64,000 nt of DNA, taken from the NCBI GenBank assembly GCA_951406725.2, contig OX597833.1, positions 3,596,001 through 3,660,000 of the forward strand. The letters run 5' to 3'. A program made the position numbers. The stretch is from Octopus vulgaris. Its lineage: Eukaryota. Position 1 is the stretch's first letter. Every line of letters starts with the position of its first letter. Shown piece after piece: positions 42,877 to 45,149 of this stretch.

Positions 42877-45149
42877 TATATATATATACACGACAGGCTT
42901 CTTTCAGTTTCCGTCTACCAAATCCACTCACAAGGCTTTTGTTGGCCCGAGTCTATAGTAGAAGACACTTGCCCAAGGTGCCACGTAGTGGGACTGAACT
43001 CGGAACCATGTGGTTGGTAAGCAAGCTACTTACCACACAGCTACTCCTACGCCTATGCAAAAAAATGTGATTTACGCGGTATTTAGCCGTTATTTTTAGC
43101 ACATCTCACGACCACATCGTACCGATCTCGTTTGTTTATCTCTCTGATATATTGATGTCTTTCAATATCTTTCTTCCCGTAAGCACATTTAATGGTCTGT
43201 TATTGGGATTTAAGCCAAGAATTCGGACTGTGATTTAAAAAAAAAATTTCGAAAACTTAAACTTTTGTTTTGCTGACTGGAATACAGGGTCCCGTACGGG
43301 ACGGTTGAGTGGGAACGAAACTGTCCCAGATAGACACAGCTGGAGCAATGACGTTCAATGTCGCAGCAAAAGGATACAGGAATGGTATAACGTGTGAAAG
43401 TTCCAGCATGGCCGTAGCCAAATACTGAAACAAATAAAAGACTCTAAGACTAGCAGAACACAAATTCGCCAAATTTTTCTGAAAATTCCACGTTTTTCAA
43501 AATTTTCTACTCCATAAACACGTTTAATGGAATGACGATGCACCAAGGGGTGGTCCACTGTGGGGCATTTAAGCAAAGAGGTCGGACCATCCGTATTTTA
43601 AACTCTGGTTTCAAAGAAAATAAAAATCGAAAAAGAGTGGACAATTTAGGGTTTATAGTGGAGTGGGGGATGGGGTTTAAAAAATTAAAAACTTTTTCCA
43701 TAATGCAGGAGTGGCTGTGTGGTAAGTAGCTTGCTAACCAACCACATGGTTCCGGGTTCAGTCCCACTGCGTGGCATCTTGGGCAAGTGTTTTCTGCTAT
43801 AGCCCCGGGCCGACCAATGCCTTGTGAGTGGATTTGGTAGACGGAAACTGAAAGAAGCCTGTCGTATATATGTATATATATATATGTATGTGTGTATGTT
43901 TGTGTGTCTCTGTTTGTCCCCCTAGCATTGCTTGACAACCGATGCTGGTGTGTTTACGTCTCCGTCACCTAGCGGTTCGGCAAAAGAGACCGATAGAATA
44001 AGTACTGGGCTTACAAAGAATAAGTCCCGGGGTCGATTTGCTTGACTAAAGGCGGTGCTCCAGCATGGCCGCAGTCAAATGACTGAAACAAGTAAAAGAG
44101 TAATACAACCCCCCTTTTTTTTTATTCTACAGGAATTTAATTTTTTGATTGTATTTACGAATTCTTTTCACATTAGTATATATATGTGTGTATTTTTATG
44201 TATTTATATATAAATATCATCATCATCATCATCATTGTTTAGCATCTGCTTTCCATGCTAGCATGGGTTGGACGGTGCAACTGGGGTCTGGGAAGCCCAT
44301 AGGCTGCACCAGGCCCAGTCTGATCTGGCAATGTTTCTACGGCTGGATGCCCTTCCTAACGCCAACCACTCCATGAGTGTAGTGGGTGCTTTTCATGTGC
44401 CACTGGCACAGGTTCCAGACGAGGCTGGCAAACGGCCACGATCATATGGTGCTTTTTACGTGCCACCGGCACGGAGGCCAGGCGAGGCTGGCAACGGCCA
44501 TGATCGGATGGTGCTTTTTACGCAAATATGTGTATGTATTTATATATGTCATCATCATATAACATCCATTATCCATGCTGGCATGGGTTGGATGGTTTGG
44601 TTAAGGGCTAGAAAGCTGAGCGGCTGCACCAGACTCTAGTCTGATTTGGCATGGTTTCTACAGTTGGATGCCCTTCCTAATGCCAACCACTCCAGAGAAT
44701 GTAATGAGTGCTTTTAAGTGCCAGCTGTGTGACACCAGTATCTGCTACGACCCCTATTTCACTTGGCTTGATGGGCCTTCTTCTCAAGCCCAGCATAATG
44801 CCAAAGTTTTCGGTCATTTGTCATTGCCTCTGTGAGACCCAAATACTCGAAAGCTACTTTTTACATGCCACTGGCATTGGGCACATTGCCTCCGTGAGGC
44901 CCAACGCTCAAAAAGTGCGTTTTTTGTGCCACCAGCATTGGCCACGACTACAATTCCACTTGGCTTGATGGACCTTCTCAAGCACAGCTTAGCGTCAACA
45001 GTCTCTGTCATTAGCCATTTGCCCCTGGGAGGCCCAACGTTTGAATACCATTGCTTCACCACTTCATCCCATGTCTTCCCACCACAGTTAGAGATTGGCG
45101 CTTCTTTAATGTATTTATTAATATATATATATATATATACATATATAAA

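What the first reader, a model, noticed from the sequence alone, without database searches (positions are those of the whole stretch)
43263..43382. Inverted copy of IFT52 coding sequence inside its probable first intron, diverged mainly at synonymous sites
Seen: about 120 bp antisense to CDS 46563-46690, 3.2 kb upstream, between the putative donor (41964) and acceptor (46011). By-eye alignment gives about 11 synonymous changes, 2 clear replacements, one scrambled codon pair with a +1 insertion and an 8-nt deletion. A neutrally decaying duplicate should not show that bias. Inference A: it is the last exon-sized remnant of a formerly functional opposite-strand IFT52, possibly the intron-containing parent replaced by the intronless copy. 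Inference B: in the pre-mRNA it can pair with the coding exon as an editing-complementary sequence; extensive ADAR recoding in coleoid cephalopods is established. The two explanations are compatible.
Basis: partly seen in the sequence, partly recalled or inferred. Interest (0 to 1): 0.75.

Follow-up and report, generated by a model that had tools for sequence, protein, structure and literature searches.

The report
Dead exon relic beside intronless IFT52
A 120-base stretch just upstream of an octopus cilia gene (IFT52) is a broken, backwards copy of one exon from an older, intron-containing version of that gene; it is probably a fossil of how the gene became intronless, and a role as an RNA-editing guide is possible but untested.

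Summary
Window 43264-43382 (minus strand) matches IFT52 codons 174-215 (46563-46688) at 81% over 127 columns, E 9e-29. The intact gene is one uninterrupted 437-codon ORF (46044-47357), 97% identical to Octopus bimaculoides IFT52.

- **Synonymous bias.** A formal codon alignment gives 11 synonymous codon differences, 3 replacements, an 8-nt deletion and a +1 insertion. dS is 0.54, dN 0.043, omega 0.08. The bias beats the best neutral model only modestly (P = 0.02, or 0.003 without the scrambled codon).
- **New finding.** The 3' end of the homology falls exactly on a phase-1 intron site in the Gly216 codon that other eukaryotes use, and GT follows it. The 5' end stops 10 nt short of a second shared intron site. 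The piece therefore comes from an intron-bearing IFT52, not from the intronless copy.
- **Isolation.** No other exon relic lies in the 64 kb.
- **Pairing.** It could form a duplex of about 120 bp with the exon (-177 kcal/mol). Co-transcription and editing are untested, and nothing in the sequence points to selection for pairing.

Verdict: a parental pseudo-exon, a new member of a known kind.

The parts
43264..43382 (-). Core of the IFT52 pseudo-exon: codons F174-K215 of the gene, read on the minus strand, broken by an 8-nt deletion and a +1 insertion (three reading frames)
   Evidence: tblastn and profile HMM hit it in two frames
43255..43263 (-). First base of the Gly216 codon (A here, G in the CDS), then GT and a degenerate donor-like motif (A|GTTTAAGT). 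Homology to the CDS stops here, exactly at a phase-1 intron site used by other eukaryotes
   Evidence: sequence; read-through ORFs P0132, P0136, P0141
43383..43400 (-). Spacer of about 18-19 nt with no significant homology to the CDS, where the first 10 nt of the ancestral exon (last base of Q170 plus A171-S173) would be expected
   Evidence: conserved QALS is absent from the fragment's translation
43401..43441 (-). Isolated first 41 nt (head) of the ~400-nt SINE-like repeat, on the same strand as the pseudo-exon. It explains the spurious 5' extension of the local alignment
   Evidence: alignment to copy 42005-42045
42645..43063 (+). Full SINE-like copy bounding the unique 630-nt island (43064-43692) that holds the pseudo-exon
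43693..44101 (-). Full SINE-like copy in inverted orientation to 42645-43063 (86.7% over 420 columns). The pair could mediate inversion or deletion, and in RNA could close the island into a loop
46563..46688 (+). The matching stretch of the living IFT52 coding sequence (codons 174-215, core of the GIFT domain)
46044..47357 (+). Intact IFT52 gene: 437 codons plus stop in one uninterrupted ORF
45990..46011 (+). Pyrimidine tract and CAG: putative acceptor of a 5'-UTR intron; the exon would start at 46012
   Evidence: frame read
41964..41969 (+). GTAAGT after ...AATG: putative donor of the same intron; the upstream unique, CpG-undepleted stretch 41612-41963 is the candidate first exon and promoter
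   Evidence: repeats end at 41611 and begin at 41997

Best explanation
The stretch is a dead pseudo-exon. It is a DNA-level relic or copy of one internal exon (the ancestral exon running from the last base of codon 170 to the first base of codon 216), plus the start of its downstream intron, from an intron-containing IFT52 gene.

The living IFT52 next to it has lost all coding-region introns. This happened either by retroposition or by recombination with a reverse transcript; the retained 5'-UTR intron would fit the second route.

Most of the divergence between the two sequences accumulated while both lineages still encoded protein. Hence there is near-saturating change at synonymous sites and almost none at replacement sites. 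The intron-bearing copy then lost function. The relic picked up two frameshifts and three replacements at otherwise conserved residues, and the rest of that gene was removed, plausibly by deletions between the abundant SINE copies that now bound the 630-nt island.

- **Shown:** the homology, the lesions, the synonymous bias, the exact intron-site coincidence at the 3' end, the absence of other relics, and the pairing potential.
- **Inferred:** long coexistence of two functional copies, the order of events, the original orientation and position of the source gene, and that the relic now does nothing.
For: 1. Homology has E 9e-29.
2. There is an 8-nt deletion and a +1 insertion, giving three frames.
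3. NG86 counts: Sd 11.5 over 29.8 synonymous sites against Nd 3.5 over 84.2 non-synonymous sites. dS is 0.54, dN 0.043, omega 0.08, Fisher P 1.3e-5. In a simulation, 0 of 5000 random placements of 15 changes reached 11.5 synonymous.
4. Against the most favourable neutral model (fragment always neutral, CDS changing only at synonymous sites), P = 0.02, or 0.003 without the scrambled codon 206.
5. G179 and C206 are invariant in the 10 outgroup proteins read. S214 is present in the two octopods read, and the eight other proteins vary there. All three replacements are therefore derived in the fragment.
6. Homology stops after K215 plus one base and is followed by GT.
7. Of 22 short ORF proteins from genomic contigs, 7 lose homology at this point. 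In P0132, P0136 and P0141 the read-through residues (G-M-S, G-K-Y, G-K-V) are what a G|GTATG or G|GTAAG donor in phase 1 of the Gly codon encodes.
8. In 5 of the 22, homology begins at residue 170/171 after an unrelated overhang, and in 4 of those 5 the overhang ends in R (which is AG plus a purine). In 3 of the 22 (P0135, P0140, P0141) both borders appear, so this very segment is a single exon there.
9. The living ORF is uninterrupted across both sites.
10. The island is bounded by SINE copies on both sides.
Against: 1. Only 15 substitutions carry the selection argument. P = 0.02 against the best neutral model is modest, and two indels in 126 nt suggest more neutral time than the replacement count does.
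2. The 5' end is 10 nt short of the shared intron site and no acceptor AG is present.
3. No other IFT52 exon relic lies in the window, which extends 43 kb to one side and 20 kb to the other. Among 3158 six-frame pieces, the next best hit has E 9, and tblastn hits are E > 0.8. A lightly decayed multi-exon gene in situ should have left more.
4. 13 of the 22 short ORFs read straight through site 170/171 and 15 of 22 read through site 216. These introns are therefore not universal. The contigs that have them are unnamed and none is known to be a mollusc.
5. Proximity (3.2 kb) of a retrocopy to its own parent has no established mechanism.
6. No poly(A) remnant or target-site duplication marks the ORF as a LINE-mediated retrocopy.
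7. Residue 178 is F in both the fragment and this CDS but Y in O. bimaculoides and Argonauta. This fits a young split better than dS 0.54 does.
Confidence: 0.55

Rival explanations
1. Never-functional small inverted duplication. A few hundred bases around one exon of the then intron-bearing IFT52 were copied in inverted orientation into nearby non-coding DNA (replication template switch). The gene later lost its introns in situ, so only the exon part still aligns. The synonymous bias is then a sampling fluke.
For: - It explains the proximity, the isolation of a single exon and the exon-bounded homology without needing a second functional gene.
- Retention of a 5'-UTR intron with loss of all coding introns is what reverse-transcript-mediated in-situ intron loss predicts (established model, recalled).
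- Two indels in 126 nt fit longer neutral decay.
- The shared F178 fits a young copy.
Against: - The expected synonymous share under this model is 0.44, against 11 of 15 observed (P = 0.02) or 11 of 13 (P = 0.003).
- Replacement-site divergence of 4% and synonymous-site difference of 38% would need the CDS to change about 8 times faster at silent sites than neutral DNA.
Confidence: 0.2
2. Working editing-complementary sequence. The relic lies in the first intron of the IFT52 pre-mRNA, pairs with the GIFT-domain exon 3.2 kb downstream, and recruits ADAR to edit that exon. It is kept because of this.
For: - Predicted duplex energy is -177.5 kcal/mol against -67.8 +/- 4.3 for 100 shuffles. There are 103 Watson-Crick and 5 G:U pairs, with helix runs of 25, 20, 16, 13 and 12.
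- Strong consensus donor and acceptor bracket it.
- The Argonauta model's N-terminus (M-N-E-T-G) matches the window's exon-1 end (..L-N), split codon and exon-2 start (V-G) better than the unspliced reading does.
- Extensive recoding in coleoids is established knowledge (recalled).
Against: - No transcript or editing data were available.
- There is no A:C mismatch on the mRNA side. The three C:A mismatches put the A on the intron side.
- Selection for pairing would act alike on silent CDS sites and on the relic, predicting at most a 2:1 excess at silent sites; about 9:1 is seen.
- There are an 8-nt bulge and 10 mismatches.
- Flanking inverted SINE copies (420 bp, 87%) and a 214-nt near-perfect palindrome after the ORF are stronger dsRNA formers.
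- A CpG-undepleted stretch at 45740-46011 could be a promoter downstream of the relic.
- Two literature searches found no paper on IFT52 editing in cephalopods.
Confidence: 0.12
3. Recent copy from a second, intron-bearing IFT52 gene that still lives elsewhere in this genome. The exon plus intron start was inserted here by templated repair or by template switching of a reverse transcriptase on unspliced RNA; the SINE head abuts it.
For: - It explains the synonymous bias and the small replacement-site decay without requiring loss of a gene.
- A SINE 5' head without its body sits 19 nt upstream on the same strand. That is atypical for ordinary 5'-truncated insertion and typical of chimeric products.
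- A paralogue 90% or more identical would hide inside the 90% cluster of P0001.
Against: - Landing 3.2 kb from the paralogue by chance is very unlikely in a genome of gigabase size.
- Only one IFT52 cluster per cephalopod appears among the 120 listed hits.
- There is no poly(A) on the sense side of the fragment; a T run is there instead.
Confidence: 0.1

Closest known systems
Retrogene replacement / 'orphan' retrogenes (e.g. amphioxus SYCP1; Sowah remnants at the tetrapod Iroquois locus)
   Same: A single-coding-exon copy carries the function while the multi-exon parent is lost or survives only as pseudogenised remnants (PMC5803294, passages read; PMC3548309 and PMC4772013, listing and start of abstract only).
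   Different: In described cases the retrogene lies at a locus unrelated to the parent. Here the presumed parental relic is 3.2 kb from the intronless gene, antisense, and apparently inside its 5'-UTR intron. The retrocopy hallmarks (poly(A), target-site duplication) are absent.
Reverse-transcript-mediated in-situ intron loss with retention of 5' introns
   Same: All coding introns are gone while a 5'-UTR intron appears to be retained. At least two ancestral intron sites (codons 170 and 216) are missing from the ORF.
   Different: That model (recalled, not read here) leaves no inverted exon copy. An extra rearrangement or an earlier inverted duplication is needed.
Intronic editing-complementary sequences of ADAR targets (vertebrate GluA2 Q/R site, Drosophila ion-channel genes)
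   Same: An intronic stretch complementary to a coding exon, able to form a long imperfect duplex.
   Different: Known ECSs (recalled) are short and conserved. They sit in an intron adjacent to the edited exon, often place a C opposite the edited A, and are not exon copies. None of these features is shown here, and editing is untested.
Antisense pseudogene or inverted-duplication loci that give double-stranded RNA with the parent gene (mouse oocyte endo-siRNAs; inverted-duplication origin of plant miRNA genes)
   Same: An inverted copy of part of a gene lies in cis and can pair with the gene's transcript.
   Different: These examples are recalled, not read here. No small-RNA data exist for this locus, and the copy is 81% rather than near-identical.

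Membership tests
Unprocessed pseudogene fragment (pseudo-exon) of IFT52 | Significant homology to a functional gene's coding sequence | tested here: met
   E 9e-29 at the nucleotide level. Profile HMM built from 120 IFT52 proteins hits it at E 8e-5 and 2.5e-3 in two frames.
Unprocessed pseudogene fragment (pseudo-exon) of IFT52 | Disabling lesions | tested here: met
   An 8-nt deletion and a +1 insertion give three frames. There are replacements at the invariant G179 and C206.
Unprocessed pseudogene fragment (pseudo-exon) of IFT52 | Homology bounded by exon-intron junctions (it does not run on into the neighbouring exons as a processed copy would) | tested here: inconclusive
   The 3' end is exact at the phase-1 site in Gly216 and GT follows. 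The 5' end is 10 nt short of the phase-2 site in codon 170 and has no AG. The intron sites are known only from unnamed non-cephalopod contigs.
Retrogene replacement (orphan retrogene) | The functional copy has a single coding exon where relatives are multi-exon | tested here: inconclusive
   The ORF is uninterrupted. Introns at codons 170 and 216 exist in 5 and 7 of 22 genomic ORF fragments from other eukaryotes. Gene structures of other cephalopods or molluscs could not be read with these tools.
Retrogene replacement (orphan retrogene) | Retroposition hallmarks: poly(A) remnant and target-site duplication | tested here: not met
   There is no A run after the 3' UTR. The apparent flanking direct repeat is AT-rich low complexity, with a best unique match of only 19 nt at 89%.
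Retrogene replacement (orphan retrogene) | The parental gene is absent from the genome | not testable with these tools
ADAR editing-complementary sequence | Complementarity giving a stable duplex with the exon | tested here: met
   -177.5 kcal/mol against -67.8 +/- 4.3 for 100 shuffles.
ADAR editing-complementary sequence | Lies in the same primary transcript as the exon | tested here: inconclusive
   Consensus donor at 41963|41964 and acceptor at 46011|46012. There is a weak match to the Argonauta N-terminus. An alternative CpG-undepleted stretch at 45740-46011 lies downstream of the relic.
ADAR editing-complementary sequence | A-to-I editing of the paired exon, dependent on the element | not testable with these tools
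   No RNA data. No paper was found.
ADAR editing-complementary sequence | Conservation of pairing beyond neutral expectation | tested here: not met
   Within this one genome, the difference is 38% at silent sites and 4% at replacement sites. That pattern tracks the protein code, not pairing. Cross-species conservation was not testable.

The most novel reading that the evidence does not exclude
A dead exon of the ancestral, intron-bearing IFT52 has been recycled as an intronic guide. It is transcribed within the first intron of its intronless successor, folds back on the homologous GIFT-domain exon, and directs ADAR editing (or small-RNA production) there. Gene replacement itself would then have created a new layer of regulation. 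A weaker but still unusual version is that the intronless copy arose inside or beside its own parent gene and the two coexisted, antisense, for a long time.
Probability: 0.1. Interest if true: 0.8.

Novelty: new member of a known kind. Interest (0 to 1): 0.4.

Why it matters
IFT52 is a core, single-copy cilia gene that is multi-exonic in other eukaryotes. An octopus copy with no coding introns, plus a relic that preserves an ancestral exon-intron junction next to it, is a rare physical trace of how an essential gene was swapped for an intronless version. It gives a datable marker: presence or absence of the relic in sister species. If the relic is in the pre-mRNA, it is also a natural test of whether a 120-bp exon-intron duplex is enough to draw ADAR editing into a coding exon in an animal with exceptionally active recoding. 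If not, it is ordinary genomic debris.

Tried and rejected
1. **5' extension of the homology** to 43409/46534. Rejected: that stretch is the first 41 nt of the SINE-like repeat, so the resemblance is coincidental. The conserved QALS residues are not encoded.
2. **Direct repeats flanking the ORF** (45472-45604 against 47571-47677) as target-site duplications. Rejected: AT-rich low complexity, with only a 19-nt unique match.
3. **Other IFT52 exon relics.** tblastn with word size 2 and a profile HMM over 3158 six-frame pieces found none.
4. **An analogous relic for the neighbouring single-ORF DnaJ gene.** None found.
5. **Retrocopy made from an edited mRNA.** Only 2 of 15 differences are G in the CDS against A in the relic, so there is no A-to-G excess.
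6. **Twin-priming 5' inversion of a retrocopy.** Rejected because the inverted piece duplicates sequence that is also present in the intact CDS.
7. **Human exon borders from the literature.** One search listed 15 of 41 papers, none about IFT52 gene structure. Not pursued.
8. **Rfam.** No family matches at the locus.
9. **Cluster membership of the octopus protein,** to look for a hidden paralogue. The query could not be made.
10. **Joined exon 1-exon 2 sequence.** I did not build it. The junction codon was read by eye from the separate translations.
12. **Supplementary files.** None were read. Editing-site tables of the cephalopod papers could bear on Inference B.
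Full report
**The observation**

The window has no N and is 40% G+C. A stop-to-stop ORF on the plus strand (46023-47357) holds an ATG at 46044 and encodes 437 residues.
- It matches Pfam IFT52_GIFT (2.8e-117), IFT52_central (2.1e-35) and Itf52_C (1.6e-29).
- It is 97% identical over its full length to the protein that NCBI names IFT52 of Octopus bimaculoides. 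It is 90% identical to that of Argonauta hians and 77-79% to two unnamed, probably decapodiform, proteins.
- The window is therefore from an Octopus-like genome, and the gene has no intron in its coding region.

blastn of 45500-47900 against the window finds 46563-46688 matched by 43382-43264 on the other strand: 81.1% over 127 columns, 15 mismatches, 2 gap openings, E 9e-29.

**Formal codon comparison**

A global alignment in the frame of the gene gives 38 intact codon pairs for codons 174-215.
- 11 pairs differ synonymously.
- 3 differ by replacement: G179A, S214N, and C206R with two changed bases.
- An 8-nt deletion removes most of codons 192-194, and one extra base sits in codon 207. The copy must be read in three frames.

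Nei-Gojobori counts are 11.5 synonymous differences over 29.8 synonymous sites and 3.5 non-synonymous differences over 84.2 sites. This gives dS 0.54 (95% interval of pS 0.23-0.59), dN 0.043 and omega 0.08, with Fisher P 1.3e-5. Differences by codon position are 2/2/11.

Placing 15 changes at random with the observed 8:7 transition:transversion ratio gave 11.5 or more synonymous changes in 0 of 5000 trials.

The fairest neutral alternative has the copy neutral from the start and the living gene changing only at silent sites. It predicts a synonymous share of 0.44. The chance of 11 or more out of 15 is 0.02. It is 0.003 if the scrambled codon 206 next to the insertion is treated as part of the indel.

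In the 10 IFT52 proteins I read (two octopods, two probable decapodiforms, five other molluscs, one brachiopod), G179 and C206 are invariant. S214 holds in both octopods, and the other eight vary at that position. All three replacements therefore arose on the copy's branch. A crude upper bound for the share of its history spent without coding constraint is 0.22.

**Where the homology ends**

*The 3' end.* On the minus strand the copy runs ...Q-Q-N-K, then one base (A where the gene has the first G of Gly216), then GT and a degenerate donor-like motif (positions 43263-43255).

To learn where IFT52 introns lie in other organisms, I searched with short pieces of the protein so that only short database proteins were candidates. 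That returned 19 and 3 short ORF proteins, and I read all 22. Most appear to be ORFs called on genomic contigs that run from an exon into the adjoining intron.
- In 7 of the 22 (P0132, P0134, P0135, P0136, P0138, P0140, P0141), homology stops at residues 209-216 and unrelated residues follow.
- In P0136, P0141 and P0132 the first read-through residues are G-K-Y, G-K-V and G-M-S. That is what G|GTAAG.. or G|GTATG.. encodes, so the intron sits after the first base of the Gly codon.
- P0135 carries an in-frame insert at that point.
- 15 of the 22 read through this site.

*The 5' end.*
- In 5 of the 22 (P0131, P0133, P0135, P0140, P0141), homology begins at residue 170/171 after an unrelated overhang.
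- In 4 of those 5 the overhang ends in R, which is AG plus a purine. That indicates an intron after the second base of the Gln170 codon.
- 13 of the 22 read through that site. One (P0138) is ambiguous and three start downstream of it.
- In 3 of the 22 (P0135, P0140, P0141) both borders are present, so in those organisms residues 171-216 form one exon.

The octopus copy spans F174 to the first base of codon 216. Its 3' end is therefore exact, and the chance of landing within 1 nt of one of 10-13 intron sites is about 0.02-0.03. Its 5' end falls 10 nt inside the exon.

The residues just upstream, N-A-Q-A-L-S, are conserved in all 10 outgroups but are not encoded by the copy. That end is therefore a breakpoint, not a zone of relaxed constraint.

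Caveats: the contigs are unnamed, none is known to be molluscan, and many lack one or both introns.

Even so, a copy taken from the intronless gene or from a spliced mRNA would have no reason to stop at this site with GT following. The copy must derive from genomic DNA, or unspliced RNA, of an intron-bearing IFT52.

**Surroundings**
- The local alignment seemed to extend to 43409. That stretch is in fact the first 41 nt of a ~400-nt SINE-like repeat, on the same strand as the copy and separated from it by about 19 unrelated bases.
- The repeat has 12 other near-full-length matches (400 or more columns) in the window to copy 42004-42397.
- The pseudo-exon lies in a 630-nt unique island (43064-43692). 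Full copies of this repeat, in inverted orientation to each other, bound it at 42645-43063 and 43693-44101, at 86.7% identity over 420 columns. Such pairs can delete or invert what lies between and beside them. The island's present orientation need not be original, and repeat-mediated deletion is a plausible way to lose the rest of a gene.
- No other IFT52 piece is present. All other tblastn hits have E > 0.8. A profile built from 120 IFT52 proteins hits only the ORF and the copy among 3158 six-frame pieces, and the next hit has E 9.

**The proposed first intron**
- G|GTAAGT lies at 41963|41964, at the end of a unique stretch (41612-41996) with CpG observed/expected 1.04, against 0.63 for the window.
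- A 20-nt pyrimidine tract with CAG| ends at 46011, 32 nt before the ATG.
- The Argonauta protein begins M-N-E-T-G...S-R-S-M-A-P. In the frame of the gene, the window's candidate exon 1 ends ..L-N. The split codon would be G|AA, and exon 2 reads V-G-stop-Y-L-K-H-S-R-N-M-A-P. This fits the spliced reading better than the unspliced one. It is a two-residue argument, and I did not build the joined sequence.
- The stretch 45740-46011 just before the ORF has CpG observed/expected 1.30. A transcription start there would leave the copy outside the transcript.

**Pairing**

As RNA, the plus strand of the copy and the exon piece cofold at -177.5 kcal/mol, against -67.8 +/- 4.3 for 100 shuffles of the copy. 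There are 103 Watson-Crick pairs, 5 G:U pairs, 10 mismatches, 9 gap columns, and helix runs of 25, 20, 16, 13 and 12. That is a credible ADAR substrate if both lie in one transcript.

Three points weigh against an evolved editing guide.
- No A in the mRNA faces a C.
- The nine-fold excess of differences at silent sites follows the genetic code. Selection on pairing would weigh on silent CDS sites and on the copy alike.
- Stronger double-strand formers lie nearby: the inverted SINE pair and a 214-nt, 97% palindrome after the ORF.

Searches for IFT52 with cephalopod, and for editing-complementary sequence with cephalopod and intron, found no paper on this gene (4 and 6 papers held the terms, none relevant by title or abstract start).

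**Most likely history**

The best reading (confidence 0.55) is a parental pseudo-exon.
- An intron-bearing IFT52 and the lineage of today's intronless gene were both under protein-level selection for most of their separation.
- The intron-bearing copy then died and was largely deleted, leaving one exon with the start of its intron.
- The intronless gene arose either by retroposition or by recombination with a reverse transcript. It shows no poly(A) remnant or target-site duplication. The retained 5'-UTR intron would fit the in-situ route.

Problems with this reading:
- the small number of informative sites;
- the missing neighbour exons;
- the lack of a known mechanism that would place a retrocopy beside its parent;
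- residue 178, which is F in both the copy and this gene but Y in O. bimaculoides and Argonauta. This suggests either a younger split than dS 0.54 implies, parallel change, or gene conversion.

Rivals:
- a never-functional small inverted duplication, with the bias arising by chance (0.2);
- a working editing guide (0.12);

**Comparison with known systems**

Loss of a multi-exon parent after a single-exon copy takes over is known as retrogene replacement or orphan retrogenes. Examples are amphioxus SYCP1, and the pseudogenised remnants of Sowah left at the Iroquois locus (PMC5803294, passages read; PMC3548309 and PMC4772013, listing and abstract start only). This case would be a new member of that kind. 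It is unusual in that the relic lies in cis, antisense, and apparently within the successor's intron. Intronic editing-complementary sequences and pseudogene-derived double-stranded RNA are what it could work like. Membership in either is untested.

**Verdict**

Inference A is strengthened by the intron-site coincidence but is not proven. Inference B is possible but unsupported. Interest is moderate (0.4).

Noticed in passing
window 47664-47876: A 214-nt AT-rich, near-perfect palindrome (97% self-complementary) lies about 310 nt after the IFT52 stop codon. If it is inside the 3' UTR it would form a ~105-bp hairpin, a stronger double-stranded RNA than the exon/relic pair.
   Followed up: no
window 61263-63596, minus strand: An uninterrupted 778-residue ORF with a DnaJ domain (1.7e-23) and one thioredoxin domain (3.5e-8). 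This is a second gene of a type that is usually multi-exon, present as a single ORF 14 kb from the intronless IFT52. No relic of it lies elsewhere in the window.
   Followed up: partly
window 3258-5039, minus strand: A 594-residue ORF made of about 16 C2H2 zinc fingers.
   Followed up: no
window 5412-5664, plus strand: A 250-nt match to eukaryotic large-subunit rRNA (Rfam RF02543, 61.6 bits, model positions 1456-1888). It is an isolated rRNA-like fragment next to the zinc-finger ORF.
   Followed up: no
window, e.g. 42004-42397, 42645-43063, 43693-44101, 48209-48586: A ~400-nt SINE-like repeat with an internal CA/TA microsatellite. It has 12 other near-full-length matches to copy 42004-42397 in 64 kb, in both orientations, at 69-92% identity.
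   Followed up: partly
window 46575-46577 and 43368-43370 (codon 178): Residue 178 is F (same codon) in both the living gene and the relic, but Y in O. bimaculoides and Argonauta and F in the two decapodiform-like proteins. This hints at a young split, parallel change or gene conversion.
   Followed up: partly
window 6501-7050: The highest CpG observed/expected ratio in the window (up to 2.1 in 300-nt windows, against 0.63 overall), just upstream of the zinc-finger ORF on the minus strand. The relic's island (43064-43692) is also undepleted at 1.07.
   Followed up: no
window 43237-43246: A run of 10 A (plus strand) lies 17 nt from the relic's end, at the end of a unique ~180-nt stretch that follows the SINE copy 42645-43063. 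It may be the tail of another retroelement.
   Followed up: no
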